Sequence record: MK373782.1 | Strand: one strand, 5' to 3' | Length of the DNA stretch: 64,000 bases | DNA from: Escherichia phage vB_EcoM_KAW3E185 | Part shown: piece by piece, positions 6,846 to 56,694 of the stretch | Position numbering within the stretch: position 1 is the stretch's first letter | How the letters are laid out: every line of letters starts with the position of its first letter | Made by a program: the position numbers and the translations under genes | The notes under the pieces: generated by a model | Told to the model about the DNA's origin: nothing | Seen by the model: only the letters and a program-made list of their open reading frames with translations | Databases searched by the model: none

Positions 6846-7370
6846 TCATTTTAGCAAAATAAAATCAACTTGTTCTGCCAATGAACGTCTAAACATTAAT
6901 TGACAACTTCCGAGGATGAAATCAGGTGCTTCATAGACGGCGATGTAGTATCCTTTAGCTTTCAAGAGTTCAACATCCACCTGGTCATCAAACCATGCAT
7001 AAACCGCGTCAACACTTTCAAATCCAAAATAGAACCCTTGAGCCCAATCTTCACTCAATTCAAATGTGTGCTCAATTCTATAGTATCTTAAGATATTTTG
7101 TTCAAGGAGTTTGTCTTCATTTACTGTAGGACGATTAGGGACATTATAGTTGTCGCCATGATGGTAGAAGTTACCCGAGAGTATTCCATGCTTATCAAGG
7201 AACTCCCATGTTTCTTCAGAGTTGTCGGTGCCTGACCAACCGTATGGTGAGCGAGGTTCTTTATTCCAAGAGGTTTCCCAAATTCTGATGGCTTTACCGT
7301 CTTCGATAGCAATTCCTGGTAATGATTCACGTTGAGTACAAAAACTACGTTCTACGCGGTAAACTATCAT
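6846..7370 (-). CDS. hypothetical protein (174 aa)
   Basis: ORF with GGAG Shine-Dalgarno and upstream early promoter. Confidence 0.5.
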   Translation of the reverse strand: MIVYRVERSFCTQRESLPGIAIEDGKAIRIWETSWNKEPRSPYGWSGTDNSEETWEFLDKHGILSGNFYHHGDNYNVPNRPTVNEDKLLEQNILRYYRIEHTFELSEDWAQGFYFGFESVDAVYAWFDDQVDVELLKAKGYYIAVYEAPDFILGSCQLMFRRSLAEQVDFILLK

Positions 7371-7396
7371 ATTATTCTCCTCTGGTTGATATGGTT

Positions 7397-7425
7397 ATAA
7401 TATCAAAACCGGAGGAGAAGTAAAC
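7397..7425 (-). promoter_or_regulatory. sigma70-type early promoter (-35 GTTTAC, 17-nt spacer, -10 TATTAT)
   Basis: Consensus hexamers read on minus strand upstream of ORF 6846-7370; coordinates approximate. Confidence 0.45.
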
Positions 7426-7429
7426 AACT

Positions 7430-7849
7430 TTATGCAAAAGATGCTGGACAATATTTTTTGATTTGGAACTCAGGAACTACCATGAACTGACCAGCGAAAA
7501 CGATGTTATAAAGCTTAACACCATCTTCAACCCATTGGTCTGAAATAAAACCAGCGACTTGATTCGTTGTCCATGGAGACCCATCAGTTGCGGCAGCAAT
7601 AGTAAATTCATGGTCTTTTACAACTAAAACTGACCTGCACAGTTTCCATTTGAACGCTTTTTCTTCTGGTTCAATGAACTGGCTTGAGACGTAACCAATG
7701 TTACCATTAACATCTCGAACTTTAACTTCGTTACATCCAAAAACCGGATCACTCACAGAAAGAACTTCAACCAACTTCCCGGCAACTTTAGAGCGAGAAG
7801 CAACAGATACATATACGTAATCACCTGTAGAGAGATTTACAATATTCAT
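7430..7849 (-). CDS. hypothetical protein, paralog A of a three-member family (139 aa)
   Basis: Shares N-terminal (ASRSKxAGKLVEV) and C-terminal (GFISDQWVEDGxKLYNIVF) blocks with the next ORF. Confidence 0.55.
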   Translation of the reverse strand: MNIVNLSTGDYVYVSVASRSKVAGKLVEVLSVSDPVFGCNEVKVRDVNGNIGYVSSQFIEPEEKAFKWKLCRSVLVVKDHEFTIAAATDGSPWTTNQVAGFISDQWVEDGVKLYNIVFAGQFMVVPEFQIKKYCPASFA

Positions 7850-7858
7850 AATAATTCC

Positions 7859-8323
7859 TTAAGCTTTACGAGGAGACACATAGCGAGTGATTTCAGATTC
7901 TTTAACAACTCGGAAGTCACCTAAGAATACGATATTGTATAACTTTTCACCATCTTCAACCCATTGGTCGCTAATGAAGCCACACATAGTATCAGTTTTG
8001 CTTGGATAACCATATTCATCGATGAAGTCAAATTCTTTATCAGTCTGGAATTCAACACCTTTACACAAGGCCCATTTGAACTGTGTAGTAGGCTCAACGA
8101 TATCGCTTGAAGCAAAGTGGGCACTTACACGAGTTTCCAAGAATTTAGGACTTACATAGGCGAACTGAGTTTCAGTTTTTCCAGAACTAGGAATGATTCG
8201 AACTTTAACTTCTTTAATACGGCCCATGCCATTAGTACGAAGTCCTACTACTTCAACCAGCTTTCCTGCAGCTTTAGAACGAGACGCTGTCGATACACGC
8301 TTAATTTCACCAATAGTAATCAT
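7859..8323 (-). CDS. hypothetical protein, paralog B (154 aa)
   Basis: See paralog A; same conserved blocks. Confidence 0.55.
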   Translation of the reverse strand: MITIGEIKRVSTASRSKAAGKLVEVVGLRTNGMGRIKEVKVRIIPSSGKTETQFAYVSPKFLETRVSAHFASSDIVEPTTQFKWALCKGVEFQTDKEFDFIDEYGYPSKTDTMCGFISDQWVEDGEKLYNIVFLGDFRVVKESEITRYVSPRKA

Positions 8324-8351: not shown

Positions 8352-8381
8352 ATTATACTCCATCCATCCTTGGATGTACAA
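8352..8381 (-). promoter_or_regulatory. early promoter (-10 TATAAT; -35 TTGTAC-like) with ccaaggatgg-type spacer
   Basis: Near-copy of the promoter cassette at 8910, 52881 and 53901; coordinates approximate. Confidence 0.4.
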
Positions 8382-8909: not shown

Positions 8910-8939
8910 ATTATACTCCAACCATCCTTGGTTGTAAAC
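8910..8939 (-). promoter_or_regulatory. early promoter (-35 GTTTAC, 18 nt, -10 TATAAT), cassette family A
   Basis: Minus strand reads GTTTACaaccaaggatggttggagTATAAT; coordinates approximate. Confidence 0.5.
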
Positions 8940-37019: not shown

Positions 37020-38708
37020 TTATGAAACAGTCATTACCGTAAATCGTCCAACTTTGCTCATTTGAAGATGTTGTCCATAAGCTTGTGGGTCATGGTCTCT
37101 GTGACTAATTATAAACACGTTTGCATCGGTTAGAGAGTTAAGAATTGTTGAAATGGCTTTAATACCTTCGGAATCAGTCGCGGAATCCATGACTTCGTCC
37201 ATAATTAATGTATTGATTCTAACACCAGAGACCTTTTCAGCAATATCTCGCCATGTAAACAACAATGCGATATCGATACGTGCCTTTTCACCTTGACTAA
37301 ATGAAGCATAACTGAACTCTTCACGACCGCGTGATTTTATAGATTCATTGAATTCTTCGTCAATAGAAAACACGTAATCAGCTTCCATGATTTTAAGATA
37401 ATGGTTAATCTGCTTGTTGAACAGAGGCACATATTTTTTAATGATAGCACCTTTAATACCAGAATCTTTTAACATATCTGTGATAATACCACGATGGTAT
37501 TTTTCAAGAACGATATCTGATTTTGTTTTAATGATTTTATCAAGTTCTTTTTGAAGCAAAGCTATCTCATCGGCATGGTCGATAAATTCTGCTGAGGCTT
37601 GCTCTATTGCAGCTTTAACTTTCTTAGCTTTATCAATAGTGGCAATCATTGCTTGTTTCTTGGTACGAATATCAGATGCAAGGTCCTGTTTAGTCTTAAC
37701 ATTAGCTCTATATTCATCAACTAGGACACTCAGATTATCTCTGTGACAGGTAAGTTGCTCGAATGAGTGATTACATTCATGAAGCTTATCGGTAATCTTA
37801 GAGACAATAGGGTCACCCTGGTGCAATTGTGATGCACAAGTAGGACATGTGCCACCGTCATGATACATCTTAATAACTTTGTTATATGAGTCGATTTTAG
37901 ATTTAATCAAGAATGCTTCTTGTCCTATCTTGTTGAATGCCTCAGTAGGGTCTTCATCAAGAACGATATTAAGTAGTCGCTCATTAGCTTCTTCGATTTC
38001 TGCTTTTAATGAACGAGCTTCTTTGGCTAGGTCGTCATACATATTCTGTAGACGCGCTACATTATCACCAGATAATTTCTTTTGACGTTCGATATTCTCA
38101 TTATAAATCTTAATTTGTTGGATAACACCATCTTTCTTGGCATCGAGAACTTGTCCCTGGGAATTAAGTTCTCGAACTTGAGACTTATTGATTTTATCCA
38201 TTTCAGCGAGTGTGCCGACTTCTAAAAGGTCTTCGACAAGTTTTCTACGAGCAGGGGTGCTAAGAGCCATGAAAGGGGTATACCCTGCCGTCCCAAGCAC
38301 AACGATCTGTTTAAAAGACGCGTATGACATTCCGATGCTACGTTCAAATTCTTCTTGGAAGTCACGACTGCTGGCAGATTCATCGAGACGAACACCGTCA
38401 ACGGAGATTTCGAAAATATTGGGCTTTTGGCCGCGTCTAATGAAGTATTTTTTATCATCGAATTCCATCCAAAGCTCAACTAAGAGCTCTTTCTTGTTCG
38501 TGCTATTAATGATTTGTCCTTTCTTAACATCACGAAATGGTTTACCGAAAAGTCCGAAAGTAATGGCTTCTAACATCGTAGATTTACCACCGCCATTTTT
38601 ACCAGTGATTAATGTCTTTTGGACTTTATCTAATTGGATATCAATAGGATTCCCACCTACCGACATGATGTTTTGATAACGAACACGATTTAATTTAAAT
38701 GATTTCAT
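37020..38708 (-). CDS. 46: recombination nuclease subunit gp46 (Rad50/SbcC-like ATPase), 562 aa
   Basis: Walker A GKNGGGKST, long coiled-coil middle, zinc hook CPTC, C-terminal ABC signature region. Confidence 0.85.
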   Translation of the reverse strand: MKSFKLNRVRYQNIMSVGGNPIDIQLDKVQKTLITGKNGGGKSTMLEAITFGLFGKPFRDVKKGQIINSTNKKELLVELWMEFDDKKYFIRRGQKPNIFEISVDGVRLDESASSRDFQEEFERSIGMSYASFKQIVVLGTAGYTPFMALSTPARRKLVEDLLEVGTLAEMDKINKSQVRELNSQGQVLDAKKDGVIQQIKIYNENIERQKKLSGDNVARLQNMYDDLAKEARSLKAEIEEANERLLNIVLDEDPTEAFNKIGQEAFLIKSKIDSYNKVIKMYHDGGTCPTCASQLHQGDPIVSKITDKLHECNHSFEQLTCHRDNLSVLVDEYRANVKTKQDLASDIRTKKQAMIATIDKAKKVKAAIEQASAEFIDHADEIALLQKELDKIIKTKSDIVLEKYHRGIITDMLKDSGIKGAIIKKYVPLFNKQINHYLKIMEADYVFSIDEEFNESIKSRGREEFSYASFSQGEKARIDIALLFTWRDIAEKVSGVRINTLIMDEVMDSATDSEGIKAISTILNSLTDANVFIISHRDHDPQAYGQHLQMSKVGRFTVMTVS

Positions 38709-38953: not shown

Positions 38954-39188
38954 CCTCAATACACGCTTCAGCCATTTTAAGAATAGAGCCGGGAGTATCG
39001 TTGTCCATTATATTAAAGCTAAATTCAATAGCCCAGTCGGTGCAGACATGAACTGCTTTAACTTCATTGCCTTCAACGCGTAATGGCTCAATCCAATACT
39101 TGATAGTGTTCTCGAATCCATCATCGTCTTTAACGTCCATTTCAACTTCAAGTCCAAGCCCAGCATTATTAAATTCATCTAAAGTCAT
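38931..39188 (-). CDS. small acidic hypothetical protein (85 aa)
   Basis: ORF on gene strand. Confidence 0.4.
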   Translation of the reverse strand: MTLDEFNNAGLGLEVEMDVKDDDGFENTIKYWIEPLRVEGNEVKAVHVCTDWAIEFSFNIMDNDTPGSILKMAEACIEDAYNDED

Positions 39189-40204
39189 TGTGTTGCCTCA
39201 ATATAAAGTTCGTTGGAATATTTGACCAGCGCTTCTCTGTCTTCGTCTGAGATATCTGGAATCGCGTCAATATATTCTTTAATGATATCTTGAAGTGATT
39301 TAATCTCGATTTCCTGGTCATCATCAGATTCAACACTGTTATCAACTTTAGAAACCATACGAAGAGAGTGAACTACTTTTTCAAGTTCAGATTCAAACTT
39401 AGTCAACTCTGAATCAATTTCTGATACTATAACACGTACGGCTAGATTAGTATAATCAGAATAATTGATTTTGCCTTTAAACGGATAAGTGATTCGTCGA
39501 TGCCATGTTGTTTCATTAGGAATAAATTCCATACGTTCAACATCAGTGTCAAATACCCAGAATCCGCGCGGGTCGTTCTCATCGCCTGCAGTAAGGGTCC
39601 ATGGTGTCCCAATATATTTGACGTTAGCAGCTTCAGAGATTGTGTGGAAGTGGCCGGACCAGACTTGTTTATAGGTCTTTAAGAAATCAGGTTCAAGCCC
39701 ATGAGACTTCATTCCTTTATAGAAATAAAAGCCATTCAGTTCCCAGTGCCCAACACAATACGCTGCGGAAGAAGTCTTGATGTGCTCTAAGATTTCACCT
39801 GTATTTTCTTCACACATCCATGGAACGATATCAATCAGACATCCGTCAAAATCTACAGTAGTTGGATGTTCGTAAATAGTAAAGTTTTCAAATTGAGTTA
39901 ACAATTCAGAAACAGTGTTAGGTGTTATTGTATTCTTAAACGCCATGTCATGGTTTCCTATCGTGACATGAACGTGAATGCCTGCTTTAGAAATCATATC
40001 AACGATTTCACGATTGAATTCCATTGTACGATGTGTTATTGCTTTACGGACGTCAAACCAATCACCATACTGAATCCAAGTTTTAATCCCGTGTTTCTTA
40101 GAGTATTCAATTGCTTGACGAATACCATCACGTTGAATATCTTGAACCCATGGGTCGTCTTGTTTGACTCCGATATGGAAGTCGCCTAAGTGCAAAATTT
40201 TCAT
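39185..40204 (-). CDS. 47: recombination nuclease subunit gp47 (Mre11/SbcD-like phosphoesterase), 339 aa
   Basis: Calcineurin-like phosphoesterase motifs (LHLGDFH, GDWFD, GNHD, GHxH). Confidence 0.85.
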   Translation of the reverse strand: MKILHLGDFHIGVKQDDPWVQDIQRDGIRQAIEYSKKHGIKTWIQYGDWFDVRKAITHRTMEFNREIVDMISKAGIHVHVTIGNHDMAFKNTITPNTVSELLTQFENFTIYEHPTTVDFDGCLIDIVPWMCEENTGEILEHIKTSSAAYCVGHWELNGFYFYKGMKSHGLEPDFLKTYKQVWSGHFHTISEAANVKYIGTPWTLTAGDENDPRGFWVFDTDVERMEFIPNETTWHRRITYPFKGKINYSDYTNLAVRVIVSEIDSELTKFESELEKVVHSLRMVSKVDNSVESDDDQEIEIKSLQDIIKEYIDAIPDISDEDREALVKYSNELYIEATQ

Positions 40205-50931: not shown

Positions 50932-51191
50932 TTAAAATATTCTCGCAGTTGGTCAAATCCACCAATATGACTTCCATCAGGAGCAAATACCTGAGGCATA
51001 GTCAATCCAACTTGTGATTCACGTCCTAGTTTATTCAGAAGCTCGTCAATTTTTTCTTCATCAAATACACCTTTCTCTGGCATCACGTTAATGAATTCGA
51101 ACGGCTGTTTCTTAACAGTCAGCAATCGTTTCGCATTATCACAATAAATGCATTTATGAATAGTAGAGTCATACCCGTACACTTTAAACAT
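50928..51191 (-). CDS. nrdC: thioredoxin NrdC
   Basis: MFKVYGYDSTIHKCIYCDNAKRLL (CxYC active site) matches T4 NrdC as I recall it; start chosen at Met7. Confidence 0.85.
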   Translation of the reverse strand: MFKVYGYDSTIHKCIYCDNAKRLLTVKKQPFEFINVMPEKGVFDEEKIDELLNKLGRESQVGLTMPQVFAPDGSHIGGFDQLREYFK

Positions 51192-51597
51192 TATTTTTCC
51201 TTTCATCAATTAAATATGCAATGCCAAATACAATACATGTAATAAAACCTGTGATACAGATAGAAACCAACAACACTGTACCAAAGAACCAAATCAAGTT
51301 ATCTTTAGTAGTTTGTTTGATATCCATCTCACGAATTTCTATAGCTATCGTATCACCTTTATTCAGAAGCGTATAAAACGATGGCGATACACGCCTGTCA
51401 AAAACTCGTCCTTGCTCATCTTTATAGACTGCAATAAATTCTAATTTAGAATATTTTCCTGTAGATTGACCTGAGATTAGCTCTACTACCTCCACAGGAA
51501 TTACTTTAGTTTCCATGTAAGTATTTTGGCTGTTCCAAATGAATGGAATAATAGCAAAAACTAAAGCTGCGATAAAACAACGAAGGCTATATCTCAT
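51184..51597 (-). CDS. membrane protein (137 aa, N- and C-terminal hydrophobic helices)
   Basis: Hydrophobic segments at both ends. Confidence 0.45.
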   Translation of the reverse strand: MRYSLRCFIAALVFAIIPFIWNSQNTYMETKVIPVEVVELISGQSTGKYSKLEFIAVYKDEQGRVFDRRVSPSFYTLLNKGDTIAIEIREMDIKQTTKDNLIWFFGTVLLVSICITGFITCIVFGIAYLIDERKNNV

Positions 51598-51902
51598 TAT
51601 AATGTTCTCTCAAATTTGTGGAAGCATTTACGGCATTTCAATTTCAAGTTATCAGTGGTCCAGTTAACCAGTTGGACTTGGATAGTTCCACATTCCGGGC
51701 ATGGATGTTTTGCTGCCGATTTGGCAGCATTTTCACGTCGTTCAACCATTTTCATTATTTCGTTCCATGCCGGAGGAACGAACTCTTCTTCACCGTGGAT
51801 TTTATCTCGCTGAACAAATTCAATCTTTGAACTATCGTCAATAAACTTAACCAAGCGGTGATTAGTGCTCATATCAATATCCTCTAAAAGGCGTAGTTTC
51901 AT
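51597..51902 (-). CDS. zinc-ribbon protein (101 aa)
   Basis: CPECG...CRKC motif pair. Confidence 0.45.
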   Translation of the reverse strand: MKLRLLEDIDMSTNHRLVKFIDDSSKIEFVQRDKIHGEEEFVPPAWNEIMKMVERRENAAKSAAKHPCPECGTIQVQLVNWTTDNLKLKCRKCFHKFERTL

Positions 51903-52852
51903 TATAACACCTCAATGGCATTTCGTAAACCATCCGCTTTCGCATTCAGAGCTTTTAACGATTTAGTTTGTTCTGCAATCTGGGCTTCGACTTCTTTCAG
52001 ACGAGATTTGAGATATTCGCGTTCTTCTCTTAAGTTATCAACTTTTTCTGCTTTAGGCTCTTTAATAGACTTAGGCTTATACTCGTTAGGGTTCTTCAAC
52101 TTAATTTGAATGCGAGAACTGTATAACATTGAACCATTATCTTCGGTTTCATCATACATTTCTACCACGTCCATGATTCTTAACATCATGCGAAGTTTAT
52201 AAGACAGCGAACGAATGGTTTTATTGTGCTTCTTAATTTCTTCAACTTTCATGGTGCCGAGATTACGTGAGTAATAATAAGGAACCTGAATATCAATTGA
52301 TAATGATGCGGTACCATTACCGGTTGGTTTGAACACTGCAGTAACCCAATCTTTAGCATGAACTGTATTTGTACGATCATCGCCGCCTGTGAATAATTTA
52401 CGAGAATGTTTAAAAAGCATATTCACTTGGTTATTGAATTCACAAGCAAATTTATCAGCAAATTTAGTTTCAGGAATGGTAGTTAACCAATCAGCCAAAT
52501 GAGTCTTTTTAACATCATTAACAATAGTGAATTCAACCAAATCGGTTTTAGATGTCACAGATTTAATAAAGCTCGGCTTCATAAAGTTTTTAATGTTATC
52601 GCGAGCTACAGTAGAAGATAATAAACGAGAACGTTTGAACCATTGAAGCAGTGTCCCTAATGAATGAGAATATGCATTTTGAGTATCTTTACAGATATGA
52701 TTTTCTTGGCCTATGTATGTACCAAAATCTCGAAGAATACCACTTACTACATCTCGGTGTGGAACATCAAATCCTAGTACACCAGAAGCACGTTGGGCAT
52801 GAACGTTAGCGATAAGACCTGCAAAGTATTCAATGTAATGTGAACGTGTCAT
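51902..52852 (-). CDS. hypothetical protein with C-terminal coiled coil (316 aa)
   Basis: Heptad-like C-terminus; own early promoter. Confidence 0.5.
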   Translation of the reverse strand: MTRSHYIEYFAGLIANVHAQRASGVLGFDVPHRDVVSGILRDFGTYIGQENHICKDTQNAYSHSLGTLLQWFKRSRLLSSTVARDNIKNFMKPSFIKSVTSKTDLVEFTIVNDVKKTHLADWLTTIPETKFADKFACEFNNQVNMLFKHSRKLFTGGDDRTNTVHAKDWVTAVFKPTGNGTASLSIDIQVPYYYSRNLGTMKVEEIKKHNKTIRSLSYKLRMMLRIMDVVEMYDETEDNGSMLYSSRIQIKLKNPNEYKPKSIKEPKAEKVDNLREEREYLKSRLKEVEAQIAEQTKSLKALNAKADGLRNAIEVL

Positions 52853-52880
52853 AATATTTTCCTCTCGTTAAGATAAATTC

Positions 52881-52910
52881 ATTATACTCCAACCATCCTT
52901 GGTTGTAAAC
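52881..52910 (-). promoter_or_regulatory. early promoter (-35 GTTTAC, 18 nt, -10 TATAAT), cassette family A
   Basis: Same 30-bp cassette as at 8910-8939; coordinates approximate. Confidence 0.5.
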
Positions 52911-52914
52911 TGAT

Positions 52915-53874
52915 TTATGATTTTAACGCATTCATTGCGTTAAAAAGTTTAGAATACTGCAACTGGAGATTCGTTACAACACTTTGAGCATCACGAAGCT
53001 TAGCTTGTGCTTTGTCAAGTTCAACAGACAGTTGGTCCATAGTGGCCTTGATTTGATTGTAATGGTAATCTTCGGCCGGAAGAAGGTCATTAGAAACATT
53101 TAGTTTTACTGCAGACAGTTTGCACACATTTGGCAAACCTTTAAACATTGATTTACCCGAAGTAGAATAAGCACTTAGGACTTCGGCCTGTTCAATTGGG
53201 GTCCCAGTAAGCGATGCTTCAAACAATGCATTTTCCTTTTTAAGATTTTGATAGTATTCAGAGTCTTTGTGCCACCATGGCGCAGGAACCTTTTTACCAA
53301 TAGATACACGAGCCTGGATAGCGATATTGCCCTTATTCTTGATAGGGTCGATAATATTAAGCTCACGAGAATAAATTGCTTTAATCTGGTGAATATTATC
53401 ACCTAACACTTCCAACGCTTGGTGGAATACACGAGCAACGTTATCATTCTTAGGTTTATACGTAAGAGTGAACTCGTTCTCACTGATAACCATGATTTCC
53501 AACTTATCGTAAGTATATTTCAAATGTTTCATGTTAATTGCTTGAGGACGAATACGAGAAGCAATGGCCATCAGATTGTTAAGGTTATTCCGGAACTGCT
53601 TAGCGAAATATTGTCCTTCACCGCCAATACAAAAATTACGAAGTTTCTGTTTGGCCAATAAACGGCTGAACTCGCCATTTTTAATGAACTCTTTAACGGG
53701 TGTGTTAGTAACGCATTCAAATTGAGTAAACTTACGAGAATTAATCCCATAATACGAACAGATTTCCTCAATCTCTTCAGGAGTCTTTACAGGCATACGG
53801 ATAGGATTAGGTCCTGGAGTATATGCGTTCGAGGTAAATTCTTTGATAAGTTCTCTACGTGTAATAAAAGCCAT
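52915..53874 (-). CDS. hypothetical protein with C-terminal coiled coil (319 aa)
   Basis: Heptad-like C-terminus; own early promoter. Confidence 0.5.
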   Translation of the reverse strand: MAFITRRELIKEFTSNAYTPGPNPIRMPVKTPEEIEEICSYYGINSRKFTQFECVTNTPVKEFIKNGEFSRLLAKQKLRNFCIGGEGQYFAKQFRNNLNNLMAIASRIRPQAINMKHLKYTYDKLEIMVISENEFTLTYKPKNDNVARVFHQALEVLGDNIHQIKAIYSRELNIIDPIKNKGNIAIQARVSIGKKVPAPWWHKDSEYYQNLKKENALFEASLTGTPIEQAEVLSAYSTSGKSMFKGLPNVCKLSAVKLNVSNDLLPAEDYHYNQIKATMDQLSVELDKAQAKLRDAQSVVTNLQLQYSKLFNAMNALKS

Positions 53875-53900
53875 TTTATATTCCTCATGTTGAAAAATTT

Positions 53901-53930
53901 ATTATACTCCAACCATCCTTGGTTGTACAT
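53901..53930 (-). promoter_or_regulatory. early promoter (-10 TATAAT; -35 GTACA-like), cassette family A
   Basis: Near-copy of the 8910/52881 cassette; coordinates approximate. Confidence 0.45.
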
Positions 53931-54925
53931 CATTCCTTAAGAAGTTTTACTACTTGAATAAGATTAGCTCGTTCTGTTTTATTTTTACCGTTTAAGCCTG
54001 CTAATCGTGAGATTTCATCGTCAGTCTGTTGAATAGTTACATTAAGTTCGTTAATCAAAGCTTCAAAGTATTTGATTTGCTCAGCATGTTTTGATTCAAA
54101 TTTCTGAACCGGAATAACGTCTTGGTTCAGTTCATCAATAAGGTCTTTAAGAGCATCTTCTTGGTTGATATCATATTCAACTTCTTTTATTTCTTCAACG
54201 AGCTCGTCTTTATATCTAACGTCTTTTAGTCCTGGAGCTGGTCCTGAAATCTCTTCTTTAAGAGTACAAACATACCCAATACGGTATCCAACGCCGTCTC
54301 GCTTGATATCAACTTCGTCGATAAATCCACAATGTTTAAGTCCAGAGCCGATTATGTCAAAATATCCTTGACGTCGTCCTTCAAACGTTACACGAACTAC
54401 TAAGACGGTTTTGCCACCGACCTTTTGAAGCTCACATTTATAAAAGTTTGTTGAACCTGAATAACATGGATGAGTTTTAAAGTTCATCTGACGATCTAGG
54501 CCCATTTGTAAACGTGCTGTTACGGCCATAAAACGTGTTTGGTTCTCGTTAAGATGAGCAACAATCCATTTCAAAGGCATTTTACCCTGTTCACGGCCGA
54601 ACAAATCAGTACGTCCTAGATTACGCAGGATGTTGTTAGAGTTAATCATCGACAGAACGTTAAGTTTATTCAGCGCGCTGAAGATTCCATCAGCCATTGA
54701 TTTTCCATAACCTTTACACGCTTTAATAAGTGCTCGCGGCAGATTAGTATAGATTTCAGACGGCATATGAAAATCAAATTTACTAACCAGTAATTGATGA
54801 ACTTGGATAGCAATTTGTTCATAATTAAGTGCTCTGCGATCGTTATGGTCTTTAAACCACACTTTAATCTGTGAAGCACATAAACCGTTAATTTCATGTT
54901 TTACCGCATCAGATGTAATGCTCAT
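53930..54925 (-). CDS. hypothetical protein with C-terminal coiled coil (331 aa)
   Basis: Heptad-like C-terminus. Confidence 0.5.
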   Translation of the reverse strand: MSITSDAVKHEINGLCASQIKVWFKDHNDRRALNYEQIAIQVHQLLVSKFDFHMPSEIYTNLPRALIKACKGYGKSMADGIFSALNKLNVLSMINSNNILRNLGRTDLFGREQGKMPLKWIVAHLNENQTRFMAVTARLQMGLDRQMNFKTHPCYSGSTNFYKCELQKVGGKTVLVVRVTFEGRRQGYFDIIGSGLKHCGFIDEVDIKRDGVGYRIGYVCTLKEEISGPAPGLKDVRYKDELVEEIKEVEYDINQEDALKDLIDELNQDVIPVQKFESKHAEQIKYFEALINELNVTIQQTDDEISRLAGLNGKNKTERANLIQVVKLLKE

Positions 54926-54987
54926 AACTATTTCCTCAGATTGAATTGGAACTCAAAACCATTATAACCCGTCCTTGGGTAAAGCGT

Positions 54988-55515
54988 TTATGCGTGAACC
55001 GTCTTTAAACGTTCTTCAAATTTCCGAAGAGTACTAATACGTTCTGCTTTCTGTTTTGTATAGTTTGCAATACGTTCTGAAGTGAGAGCGTATCGTTCGT
55101 TTACTGATTCTTTCATGAAGTCAGGGATTTCACGAGAAGCTTTAATTTCATCAAACTTATCGAGTACTGCCTGGTCTTCAGCGATTAAATTTTCGTACAT
55201 CTCGATATCTTTCTTGATAAACTCGATATCTTCCTGGGTTACTTTGGATAAACGAGATGCTTTATCCTTTTTGTACTGCTCGTTAGTTTCACGAGACCAG
55301 AATAATGTACGTTTTTTGTTAGTGTTTTTGTAGACTTCCACAATTCCAACTGAATCGATGATAACAATCCAATTCCAGCGAGATTTGAAAATCTGACCTC
55401 CGTCCACGGTAATCTCGTTACCATAAGCAACGTCATTAAAGAACTTGCTTTGTGCTTCAGATTTAAATTTACCGTCGTTATAATTTACCAGGTTGAAAAT
55501 ATCTTTAGCGTTCAT
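54988..55515 (-). CDS. hypothetical protein with C-terminal coiled coil (175 aa)
   Basis: ORF with upstream early promoter. Confidence 0.5.
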   Translation of the reverse strand: MNAKDIFNLVNYNDGKFKSEAQSKFFNDVAYGNEITVDGGQIFKSRWNWIVIIDSVGIVEVYKNTNKKRTLFWSRETNEQYKKDKASRLSKVTQEDIEFIKKDIEMYENLIAEDQAVLDKFDEIKASREIPDFMKESVNERYALTSERIANYTKQKAERISTLRKFEERLKTVHA

Positions 55516-56000: not shown

Positions 56001-56468
56001 TTATTTCAGTAAAGTAACTTCCGAGATTTCTTCCCAACCATCTTTATCAGTTGAAATAAAATCTGCTACATAAAGAGCCGTACGTAATGATACATTGCGA
56101 AGACGAGATACGTTAGCCTTCATCCAGGACAATGCTTTATACGTTTCTGCATCAGTCAGACCACGTTTCTGCATCATGTCAGTAGATAATATTACATCTT
56201 CAACTCGAACCATAATCTCTTCATTAGAGTGTACTCCAAGGTCGAGATACACTGAACGAGATACTAAAGCTTGAAGGTGTGGAGCAAGTTTAGAACCGCG
56301 TTCTAACTCTTTATCGATATCAACGTTTGTAATGAAAACGATAGTACCTTCAAACTCAAATTCTTTATCAATACCCTTATCCTCGAGATAAGATGACGCA
56401 GTGCTCCAACAAACTTTGCGTTTATCGCCGGTATCTAATGCTGCTTTAAGAAGGTTCAAGATGTCCAT
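56001..56468 (-). CDS. AAA+-like ATPase C-terminal fragment (155 aa); gene possibly frameshifted
   Basis: Sensor-1-like TIVFITNVD and Arg-finger-like LVSRSVYL; in-frame upstream codons continue ...LLIDDVDVFSD (Walker B-like) with no start codon. Confidence 0.4.
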   Translation of the reverse strand: MDILNLLKAALDTGDKRKVCWSTASSYLEDKGIDKEFEFEGTIVFITNVDIDKELERGSKLAPHLQALVSRSVYLDLGVHSNEEIMVRVEDVILSTDMMQKRGLTDAETYKALSWMKANVSRLRNVSLRTALYVADFISTDKDGWEEISEVTLLK

Positions 56469-56694
56469 ATCTGAGAATACGTCAACGTCGTCGATTAAGA
56501 GAACGCTGTCTGCATCACGGTTGAGCCAAAGTTGTTCGTAAAGGCCAATACCGGAGATTTTACCATACTCGCTTCAATAAGATTCACTATGCCGTTTACC
56601 ATGTTATAGGTAAACATCGGATAATTGTATTGTACTACAACATAAGCGATAAGCAAAAGTTTCATTTTGTTCTCCGTTCGTTTTGATAGGACTA

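What the first reader, a model, noticed from the sequence alone, without database searches (positions are those of the whole stretch)
51902..54925. Three consecutive 320-aa proteins with C-terminal coiled coils
ORFs 51902-52852, 52915-53874 and 53930-54925 are similar in size and each ends in a heptad-rich segment of about 60 aa, but their globular parts are not obviously alike. The first two have near-identical family A promoter cassettes. This may be a set of structurally related effectors that has diverged beyond easy sequence recognition.
Basis: seen in the sequence. Interest (0 to 1): 0.4.

Follow-up and report, generated by a model that had tools for sequence, protein, structure and literature searches.

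The report
Diverged paralog array of phage anti-defence candidates
Three neighbouring early genes of an RB69-like T4-type phage are very diverged copies of one protein family (T4 NrdC.3, NrdC.5 and NrdC.6), each ending in a coiled coil; the T4 version of one copy is known to disarm the bacterial immune protein Dsr1, so the others are good candidates for further immune inhibitors.

Summary
Three minus-strand genes of 316, 319 and 331 aa end in a 45-55 aa heptad segment. The first two sit behind an identical 26-nt promoter cassette, and the third has a shortened variant of it.

The window comes from a Mosigvirus (RB69-like). The genes are orthologues of T4 nrdC.3, nrdC.5 and nrdC.6, not nrdC.10/11.

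BLASTP finds no similarity among them. Profile-profile comparison joins them, together with T4 NrdC.4 and a single-copy bridging family from Enterobacter, Klebsiella and Edwardsiella phages, into one superfamily. E-values are 1e-6 to 1e-12, against at best 0.02-0.13 for 26 unrelated control families. The signal survives removal of the coiled coil.

Both structure predictions had low confidence, so the fold was not shown directly.

T4 nrdC.5 was shown experimentally to overcome Dsr1 (eLife 2022). All four T4 genes are non-essential, and nearby genes counter OLD and Septu.

Best reading: a fast-evolving tandem array of coiled-coil anti-defence proteins with variable copy number. The genes and families were already catalogued. 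The superfamily link and the covarying promoter hairpin are modest new points.

The parts
51902..52852 (-). ORF1, 316 aa: orthologue of T4 NrdC.3 (56% identity); family phrog_1435 / PF26897; paralogue of T4 NrdC.4
51905..52045 (-). ORF1 C-terminal coiled-coil segment (aa 270-316), ending ...GLRNAIEVL
   Evidence: AF2 helix 275-315 with pLDDT 75-84
52881..52909 (-). Early-promoter cassette of ORF1: TTTACA-N17-TATAAT, with the hairpin CAACC-AAGGAT-GGTTG and a GGAG inside the spacer
52915..53874 (-). ORF2, 319 aa: NrdC.5 family (Pfam DUF7235, full length, E 3.7e-123). It is only 25% identical to T4 NrdC.5, the published anti-Dsr1 protein
52918..53079 (-). ORF2 C-terminal coiled-coil segment (aa 266-319), ending ...KLFNAMNALKS
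   Evidence: AF2 helix 266-318
53901..53929 (-). Early-promoter cassette of ORF2: TGTACA-N17-TATAAT; its 26 nt are identical to the ORF1 cassette
53930..54925 (-). ORF3, 331 aa: orthologue of T4 NrdC.6 (30-37% identity); phrog_2257 / PF26899
53933..54091 (-). ORF3 C-terminal heptad segment (aa 279-331) with a GLNGKN break, ending ...NLIQVVKLLKE
   Evidence: weak coiled-coil-type matches
54961..54985 (-). Shortened variant of the same cassette upstream of ORF3: TTTAC-ACCC-AAGGAC-GGGT-TATAAT. The -35/-10 spacing is too short for the consensus scan. It is homologous to the cassette after nrdC.8 in T4
   Evidence: (not listed as a promoter)
8352..8377 (-). Same cassette family elsewhere in the window, with compensatory stem changes (CATCC...GGATG)
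8910..8935 (-). Third exact copy of the 26-nt cassette

Best explanation
The three genes are tandem paralogues of one fast-evolving protein superfamily of T4-type phages: NrdC.3/NrdC.4, NrdC.5, NrdC.6 and a single-copy form in Enterobacter, Klebsiella and Edwardsiella phages.

Shared plan (shown by alignment and secondary-structure prediction):
- an N-terminal helical part carrying two conserved motifs, roughly F-K-x-x-R-L-L-S...L-x-N-F and F-x-x-N...A-S/R-R-L-x-x-G;
- a central alpha/beta domain with the order beta3-alpha-beta2;
- a variable linker;
- a P-V/A-E..H motif followed by a 45-55 aa C-terminal coiled coil ending L-x-N-A-x-x-x-L.

Expression. The genes carry sigma-70-type early-promoter consensus sequences (shown as consensus matches only).

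Function. These are accessory anti-defence proteins. ORF2 belongs to the family of T4 NrdC.5, which by itself restores infection of Dsr1-carrying E. coli (shown for T4 only).

Inferred mechanism. The coiled coil makes a dimer or higher oligomer. The diversified globular domains bind a host immune protein (the Dsr1 SIR2-TPR sensor in the case of NrdC.5) and prevent its activation. The paralogues have diverged to cover different targets or variants. Copies are gained, lost and moved by recombination at the repeated hairpin-promoter cassettes that flank them.
For: Identity. The window is 99.6% identical to Mosigvirus records. RB69 and T4 annotation plus PHROG and Pfam matches name the genes nrdC.3, nrdC.5 and nrdC.6.

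Homology.
- hhalign gives C3-C4 97.7%, E 2.4e-12; X-C5 96.1%, E 2.9e-9; X-C6 95.6%, E 1.1e-8; C5X-C34 95.6%, E 1.2e-8; C5X-C6 93.8%, E 1.7e-7.
- An HMM of family X, searched against 1010 ORFs, ranks only C6, then C5, then C4 and C3 members at the top.
- 26 control families reach at best E 0.13 for the C5X query.
- With the coiled coil removed: C5-C34 E 5.6e-7, X-C6 7e-6, X-C5 5e-5; best controls 0.02-0.09.
- Pfam's own DUF7235 model hits family X just above its gathering score.
- The motifs are colinear in the MAFFT alignment.
- The two AlphaFold2 models show the same order of secondary-structure elements.

Function.
- T4 nrdC.5 alone counteracts Dsr1 (PMC9391042).
- T4 nrdC.3 to nrdC.6 are all non-essential in the HIDEN-SEQ supplement.
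- Neighbouring genes are anti-defence genes: gp49.2 against OLD and nrdC.1 against Septu.

Arms-race signature.
- Window-to-T4 identity is 56%, 25% and 30-37% for the three genes, against 84% for NrdC.8 and 90% for NrdC.
- Copy number varies from 1 to 4.
- Decayed and rearranged copies occur: a split gene, a frameshift and a chimera.
Against: - No confident 3D model was obtained (pLDDT 40 and 51), so a common fold is inferred, not seen. Foldseek found nothing convincing beyond ORF1's own orthologue.
- Direct C5-C6 and C34-C6 comparisons are not significant on their own. Including C6 depends on the bridging family X, which has five sequences.
- ORF2 is only 25% identical to T4 NrdC.5, so anti-Dsr1 specificity may not be conserved.
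- No anti-defence phenotype has been reported for NrdC.3, NrdC.4 or NrdC.6.
- Direct binding of Dsr1 by NrdC.5 has not been shown.
- The oligomeric state is unknown.
- The ORF3 cassette lacks a proper -35/-10 spacing, so ORF3 may be read through from the nrdC.8 promoter.
Confidence: 0.55

Rival explanations
1. The proteins are homologous, but only the NrdC.5 lineage is an immune inhibitor. The other paralogues (ORF1/NrdC.3 and ORF3/NrdC.6) have other early host-takeover or regulatory roles.
For: Only nrdC.5 has a published phenotype. HIDEN-SEQ screens on defence-carrying and clinical strains picked out nrdC.1, alt and others in the text that was read, but not nrdC.3, nrdC.4 or nrdC.6.
Against: The context and evolutionary behaviour are those of anti-defence genes: non-essential, fast-diverging, variable in copy number, and embedded among proven anti-defence genes. 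The screens covered few defence systems.
Confidence: 0.25
2. The paralogues act together as one hetero-oligomeric complex, assembled through their similar C-terminal coiled coils, rather than as independent effectors.
For: The C-terminal helices are the most similar parts and share the ending L-x-N-A-x-x-x-L. The genes are adjacent, and each has early-promoter-like sites directly upstream or nearby.
Against: T4 nrdC.5 alone, expressed from a plasmid, rescued a deletion phage on Dsr1 cells. The array ranges from one to four members in related phages. Individual copies decay independently.
Confidence: 0.12
3. The three proteins are unrelated, share only a convergent coiled-coil tail, and their similar size is a coincidence.
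For: BLASTP finds nothing. Direct C5-C6 hhalign is not significant. There is no confident structure.
Against: With the coiled coil removed, the profile matches are colinear and 2-5 orders of magnitude better than any of the 26 control families. A bridging family matches both C5 and C6 through non-coil motifs. The N-terminal and internal motifs are shared.
Confidence: 0.06

Closest known systems
T4 NrdC.5 (Pfam DUF7235), the anti-Dsr1 protein of Srikant, Guegler and Laub 2022
   Same: ORF2 matches the same Pfam model over its full length (E 3.7e-123, against 5.3e-126 for T4). It has the same position in the array, the same size and the same C-terminal coiled coil. It is an early gene.
   Different: Only 25% pairwise identity to the T4 protein. 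tblastn with ORF2 does not reach T4 at all. Activity against Dsr1 has not been tested for the Mosigvirus form.
T4 NrdC.3, NrdC.4 and NrdC.6 (hypothetical proteins; phrog_1435 and phrog_2257)
   Same: ORF1 and ORF3 are their orthologues, with full-length PHROG matches and conserved gene order. They are non-essential in T4.
   Different: Mosigviruses lack the NrdC.4 copy. No function is known. PHROGs and the separate Pfam accessions list three families; here they are linked into one superfamily.
DSAD1, the anti-DSR2 protein of SPbeta-like phages
   Same: A functional analogue: a phage protein that neutralises a defence-associated sirtuin.
   Different: No detectable sequence similarity. Profile searches of all PDB chains, which should include the DSAD1 complexes (see the DSR2-DSAD1 structure papers), found nothing at E up to 1 apart from two weak coiled-coil-type matches for ORF3 (E 0.18 and 0.33). 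The host group and target (DSR2, not Dsr1) also differ.
T-even internal protein loci (ipI/ipII/ipIII) and other diversified anti-defence gene arrays
   Same: Small clusters of fast-evolving, non-essential paralogues that counter strain-specific defences, flanked by promoter plus stem-loop elements thought to promote shuffling (discussion of PMC2839356).
   Different: Internal proteins are packaged in the head and injected. The NrdC.3-6 proteins are ordinary early gene products, are larger, and carry a coiled coil.
PeSL cassettes (promoter-early stem-loops; Arbiol 2010, Comeau 2014)
   Same: A repeated intergenic module combining an early promoter with a small hairpin. It lies in a plastic region, at the boundaries of genes that differ between related phages.
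   Different: Here the hairpin (4-5 bp stem, invariant AAGGAT loop) sits inside the -35/-10 spacer and has no U-tract. Classical PeSLs have an adjacent G/C-rich terminator stem-loop.

Membership tests
NrdC.5 family (Pfam PF23882 DUF7235), for ORF2 | Full-length match to the family model above the curated cut-off | tested here: met
   411 bits against a cut-off of 30; residues 15-318 on profile positions 1-307. T4 NrdC.5 scores 421 bits.
NrdC.5 family (Pfam PF23882 DUF7235), for ORF2 | Conserved position between nrdC.6 and nrdC.4/nrdC.3 | tested here: met
NrdC.5 family (Pfam PF23882 DUF7235), for ORF2 | Counteracts Dsr1 (the published activity of the T4 member) | not testable with these tools
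   Known only for T4 nrdC.5. ORF2 is 25% identical.
NrdC.3/NrdC.4 family (phrog_1435, PF26897), for ORF1 | Full-length profile match and orthologous position | tested here: met
   phrog_1435 E 9.6e-105, residues 1-316. PF26897 is recorded on all homologues. RB69 nrdC.3 is 94% identical.
NrdC.6 family (phrog_2257, PF26899), for ORF3 | Full-length profile match and orthologous position | tested here: met
   phrog_2257 E 5.6e-127. RB69 nrdC.6 is 97% identical.
Single NrdC.3-6 superfamily (proposed here) | Significant colinear profile-profile similarity of the globular parts, above unrelated controls | tested here: met
   C6 is joined only through the bridging family X.
Single NrdC.3-6 superfamily (proposed here) | Same three-dimensional fold | tested here: inconclusive
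   AF2 pLDDT 40 and 51. The order of helices and strands is the same, but no reliable superposition is possible.
Coiled coil | Unbroken heptad register with hydrophobic a/d positions over at least 4 heptads, without proline | tested here: met
   This is an ad hoc score, not COILS or Marcoil. ORF3 has one Gly-rich break.
Coiled coil | Forms an oligomer | not testable with these tools
   No multimer prediction or experiment was available.
PeSL regulatory cassette | Sigma-70-like early promoter plus stem-loop, repeated, at boundaries of variable genes | tested here: met
   The presence or absence of NrdC.4 and the relocation of nrdC.7 both coincide with cassettes.
PeSL regulatory cassette | The stem-loop is adjacent to the promoter and acts as a terminator | tested here: not met
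   The hairpin lies within the -35/-10 spacer, is weak (-4.9 to -7.3 kcal/mol) and has no T-run.
Secretion-chaperone-like / YbjN fold (central domain) | alpha-beta3-alpha-beta2-alpha topology with a significant structural match | tested here: inconclusive
   The predicted element order fits. Foldseek matches to YbjN, AmyR and type III secretion chaperones have E of 0.02 or worse and TM below 0.35, from a low-confidence model.
DSAD1 (anti-DSR2) | Sequence similarity to solved DSAD1 chains | tested here: not met
   No PDB chain matched at E up to 1 for ORF1 or ORF2. ORF3 gave only two weak coiled-coil-type matches, YjgA and troponin T, at E 0.18 and 0.33.

The most novel reading that the evidence does not exclude
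NrdC.3, NrdC.4, NrdC.5, NrdC.6 and the single-copy form in other enterobacterial T4-type phages make up one unrecognised superfamily of coiled-coil-oligomerised immune inhibitors. Its tandem copies have each specialised on a different host sensor, for example different Dsr1/Avs7-type TPR sensors of capsid protein. Its copy number is reshuffled by recombination at a covarying AAGGAT-loop hairpin built into early promoters.
Probability: 0.3. Interest if true: 0.6.

Novelty: new member of a known kind. Interest (0 to 1): 0.4.

Why it matters
T4-type phages are the main model for phage-host arms races and are candidates for phage therapy, yet most of their early accessory genes have no assigned function. 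Linking three (four in T4) large orphan genes to the one member with a proven anti-Dsr1 role turns them into specific, testable candidates for new immune inhibitors. It also suggests how such inhibitors diversify: by tandem duplication, fast divergence of a binding domain on a constant coiled-coil stalk, and cassette-mediated gain and loss. This is an incremental result. The genes, their Pfam and PHROG families and the NrdC.5 phenotype were already known.

Tried and rejected
- BLASTP among the three proteins found nothing.
- The first hhalign round, with shallow alignments, detected only C3-C4.
- A first NrdC.3 HMM seemed to hit T4 NrdC.5 at E 1e-15. This was an artefact: a natural NrdC.5/NrdC.3 chimera (P0033) was in the alignment. 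It was removed.
- AlphaFold2 of ORF2 (18 sequences) and ORF1 (29 sequences) gave pLDDT 40 and 51.
- Foldseek of the ORF1 model against BFVD found only its own orthologue convincingly, plus weak hits to proteins of 216-370 aa, several of them from other T4-like phages (Acj9, PS2, Melville; TM about 0.2). These are a lead only. Against the PDB nothing fell below E 0.017.
- PDB sequence searches, PADLOC and NCBIfam gave nothing informative.
- tblastn with ORF2 reaches only Mosigviruses.
- MAFFT alignments mixing the families misalign motif 1. For that reason a mixed profile was not sent to the representative-protein search, and that tool was left unused: cross-family hits of 25-45 bits could not be significant in 1.8 billion sequences.
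- Two of my promoter patterns had the wrong spacing and found nothing; they carry no information.
- NrdC.8, the next gene, has a helical C-terminal half but weaker heptads (45 of 2000 shuffles) and no profile similarity. It was excluded from the family.
Full report
**What is there.** The window is a T4-type phage of the genus Mosigvirus (RB69-like). The 4.1 kb around the finding is 99.6% identical to Escherichia phage vB_Eco_NicPhage and more than 97% identical to many mar005P1, JK42 and APCEc01-type records (taxonomy). All genes in the region run on the minus strand. Each has a GAGG Shine-Dalgarno 8-9 nt before its ATG.

**Which T4 genes they are.** The RB69 and T4 annotations and the family matches identify them as orthologues of nrdC.3, nrdC.5 and nrdC.6.
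- ORF1: phrog_1435, E 9.6e-105; PF26897 on all homologues.
- ORF2: Pfam DUF7235 (PF23882), E 3.7e-123, and phrog_2351.
- ORF3: phrog_2257, E 5.6e-127; PF26899.
- T4 carries a fourth gene of the same size, nrdC.4, between nrdC.3 and nrdC.5.
- Many GenBank records label these ORFs 'thioredoxin'. This is an annotation carried over from nrdC and has no support.

**Checking the observation: the coiled coils.** A simple heptad score ranks the three ORFs 2nd, 3rd and 5th among the 74 minus-strand ORFs of at least 100 aa. The best window is always in the last ~50 residues. Shuffling the C-terminal 63 residues reaches the observed score in 0, 1 and 2 of 2000 trials. One unbroken register places L/I/V/M at 11 of 14 a/d positions in ORF1 (aa 270-316) and 10 of 15 in ORF2 (aa 266-319). 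In ORF3 (aa 256-331) it is 14 of 22, with a GLNGKN interruption. AlphaFold2 draws one long terminal helix in ORF2 (266-318) and ORF1 (275-315), the best-scored parts of otherwise poor models. The coiled coils are real but span about 45-55 residues.

**Checking the observation: the promoter cassettes.** The 26-mer ACAACCAAGGATGGTTGGAGTATAAT is identical upstream of ORF1 and ORF2. It occurs a third time at 8910-8935 and, with two compensatory changes, at 8352-8377; none is expected by chance. It forms TTTACA/TGTACA-N17-TATAAT promoters. ORF3 has a shortened version, TTTAC-ACCC-AAGGAC-GGGT-TATAAT. Its spacing does not fit a -35/-10 pair, so ORF3 may be transcribed from the nrdC.8 promoter at 55570-55543.

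Three lines of evidence show homology.

(i) T4 NrdC.3 and NrdC.4 fall in the same PHROG and align at 97.7% probability, E 2.4e-12.

(ii) I fetched the nrdC neighbourhood of 39 IMG/VR T4-like contigs. At the same position, phages of Enterobacter, Kosakonia, Klebsiella, Edwardsiella and Pectobacterium carry a single gene of 309-338 aa, here called family X. Both the NrdC.5 and the NrdC.6 HMMs hit it. The NrdC.6 match runs through the non-coil motif N-x-R-x-x-L-A-L-G-x-R-L..G....F-K-T. The NrdC.5 match runs through the motif 1-2 region and the P-V-E..H pre-coil motif. By hhalign, X-NrdC.5 gives 96.1%, E 2.9e-9 over 226 columns, and X-NrdC.6 gives 95.6%, E 1.1e-8. An HMM of X searched against all 1010 non-redundant ORFs of these loci returns, after itself, only NrdC.6, then NrdC.5, one further divergent copy at the same position (L036, 393 aa), and then NrdC.4 and NrdC.3 members, before the first unrelated ORF at E 0.77. 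Pfam's own DUF7235 model also hits X just above its gathering score.

(iii) (NrdC.5+X) against (NrdC.3+NrdC.4) gives 95.6%, E 1.2e-8, and against NrdC.6 gives 93.8%, E 1.7e-7.

**Controls.** Against 32 gene-family alignments built from the same loci, the NrdC.5+X query scores the NrdC.6, NrdC.4 and NrdC.3 families at E 2e-6 to 1.5e-5, while the best unrelated family scores 0.13. After removing the last 65 residues (the coiled coil) from every sequence, the results are:
- NrdC.3-NrdC.4: E 6.6e-13
- NrdC.5-(NrdC.3+4): 92.3%, E 5.6e-7 over 162 columns
- X-NrdC.6: E 7e-6
- X-NrdC.5: E 5e-5
- best of 26 controls: E 0.02-0.09

All these alignments are colinear and in the register of the motifs seen in a plain MAFFT alignment:
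- N-terminal M-x-T-R-x-x-Y/L-I-x-x-F;
- motif 1, F-K..R-L-L-S......L-x-N-F;
- motif 2, F..N.......A-S/R-R-L..G;
- a beta region;
- P-V/A-E..H..I;
- the C-terminal L-x-N-A...L.

Weak points. Direct NrdC.5-NrdC.6 and (NrdC.3+4)-NrdC.6 comparisons are not significant alone, so NrdC.6 is joined through family X, which has only five sequences.

**Structure.** The two models share the same order of elements: N-terminal helices, three strands, a long helix, one or two further strands, a linker, and the terminal helix. This is supportive but not decisive. Foldseek with the ORF1 model found its own orthologue (E 2e-19) and only weak hits to proteins of 216-370 aa, several of them from other T4-like phages. 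Against the PDB nothing fell below E 0.017; the hits to YbjN and type III secretion chaperones fit the alpha-beta3-alpha-beta2-alpha order but are not reliable. PDB sequence searches, PADLOC and NCBIfam gave nothing useful.

**Function.** The eLife 2022 study of T4 evolution (PMC9391042) showed that a T4 clone carrying a deletion cannot plate on ECOR17, or on MG1655 carrying ECOR17 dsr1. [quoted passage not shown] Dsr1 is a SIR2 NADase with a TPR sensor, reported in a 2026 preprint to recognise major capsid protein.

Supporting context:
- T4 nrdC.3.4.5 and .6 are all scored non-essential by transposon saturation.
- The same gene block holds gp49.2 (anti-OLD), nrdC.1 (anti-Septu) and pin, annotated as an inhibitor of host Lon protease.
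- Between T4 and this window, NrdC is 90% and NrdC.8 84% identical, but NrdC.3 is 56%, NrdC.5 25% and NrdC.6 30-37%.
- Copy number ranges from one (X only) through three (C6-C5-C3 here; C6-C5-C4 in a third group of contigs) to four in T4.
- Copies decay or rearrange: nrdC.4 is split in one contig, the RB69 reference NrdC.5 loses its coiled coil by frameshift, and there is a natural NrdC.5/NrdC.3 fusion (P0033).

**Most likely mechanism.**
- Shown: homology, the coiled-coil signature, early-type promoter consensus, non-essentiality of the T4 homologues, and the anti-Dsr1 activity of T4 NrdC.5.
- Inferred: each protein oligomerises through its coiled coil and uses its diverged globular domain to bind and block a host immune protein; ORF2 acts on a Dsr1-type sensor; the paralogues cover different targets; recombination at the repeated cassettes adds, removes and moves copies.

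The cassette inference has some support. The NrdC.4 presence/absence boundary lies at a cassette. The cassette that follows nrdC.8 precedes nrdC.7 in T4 but nrdC.6 here, while the nrdC.7 homologue sits next to nrdC.

**Comparison and novelty.** The sequences, their Pfam and PHROG families and the NrdC.5 phenotype are already known, and the window proteins are 99-100% identical to deposited ones. Two points appear to be unreported in the searched literature: NrdC.3/4, NrdC.5 and NrdC.6 form one superfamily, and they share a covarying promoter hairpin. I therefore rate this a new member of a known kind, of moderate interest. It gives specific candidates for new anti-defence functions rather than a new kind of system.

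Noticed in passing
window 56557-56566 (junction); 56001-56468 truncated gene: Relative to RB69 and all close relatives, the window lacks about 3 kb: the 5' half of nrdC.10, RB69ORF102c, nrdC.11, a membrane-protein gene, mobD.1 and the start of tk.1. A 155-aa C-terminal fragment of NrdC.10 is left. The two flanks overlap by about 10 nt. None of 155 matching phage records carries this junction contiguously.
   Followed up: partly
window 54967-54980, 53911-53924, 52891-52904, 8920-8933, 8362-8375 (minus strand); T4 L003 upstream of nrdC.7, nrdC.4, nrdC.3; L031 upstream of C6 and C4: The early-promoter cassettes contain a hairpin with an invariant AAGGA(T/C) loop, located between the -35 and -10 elements. 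The stem arms covary: CAACC/GGTTG, CATCC/GGATG, ACCC/GGGT, TACC/GGTA, CCAC/GTGG and AGCC/GGCT. 93% of cells are paired, 4 of 5 pairs show changes on both sides, and 0 of 500 shuffles reach the covariation score. There are five such hairpins in the window, all on the coding strand, against 0.4 expected. Most are followed by GGAG, the RegB recognition motif. The role is unknown: RNA element in read-through transcripts, protein binding site, or recombination site. Caveat: the window copies were selected by requiring complementarity, and there are only six distinct sequences.
   Followed up: partly
protein P0033 (from a 167-kb contig): A natural chimera. Residues 146-272 of a T4-type NrdC.5 are fused to residues 141-316 of NrdC.3 at the shared KFNKVN/FNNQVN microhomology. 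This deletes the NrdC.5 coiled coil, all of nrdC.4 and the NrdC.3 N-terminus. It contaminated my first NrdC.3 profile.
   Followed up: yes
L004 (RB69 NC_004928) 7071-7973; L027 7463-8495: Decayed copies. The RB69 reference NrdC.5 is 95% identical to ORF2 up to residue 237, then shifts frame and loses the coiled coil (300 aa). In one Tequatrovirus contig nrdC.4 is split into ORFs of 193 and 158 aa.
   Followed up: no
window 51184-51597 (minus): The NrdC.7 homologue, a predicted membrane protein (phrog_2547), lies next to nrdC here and in RB69. In T4 it lies between nrdC.8 and nrdC.6. The cassette downstream of nrdC.8 is conserved in both arrangements.
   Followed up: partly
window 51902-54925 and GenBank records: Several deposited genomes label these three ORFs, and up to seven neighbours, 'thioredoxin' or 'Thioredoxin, phage-associated'. 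One neighbour is labelled 'Mur ligase domain-containing protein'. No family search supports either label.
   Followed up: yes
window 54988-55515 (minus): NrdC.8 (175 aa, 84% identical to T4) has a helical, charged C-terminal half with a weaker heptad signal (45 of 2000 shuffles). It shows no profile similarity to the NrdC.3-6 superfamily. A 2026 paper lists nrdC.8 as down-regulated in DRT1-expressing cells.
   Followed up: partly
window 37020-38708 and 39185-40204 (minus): Two other ORFs (562 and 339 aa) have heptad scores as high as the three studied here, but at internal rather than terminal positions. They were not identified.
   Followed up: no
L036 7608-8789; L041 8648-9772: Further ORFs of 374-393 aa at the same position in more distant T4-like contigs also end in a heptad-rich helix. 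The L036 ORF hits family X weakly (E 1e-4). They are probably more divergent members of the superfamily.
   Followed up: partly
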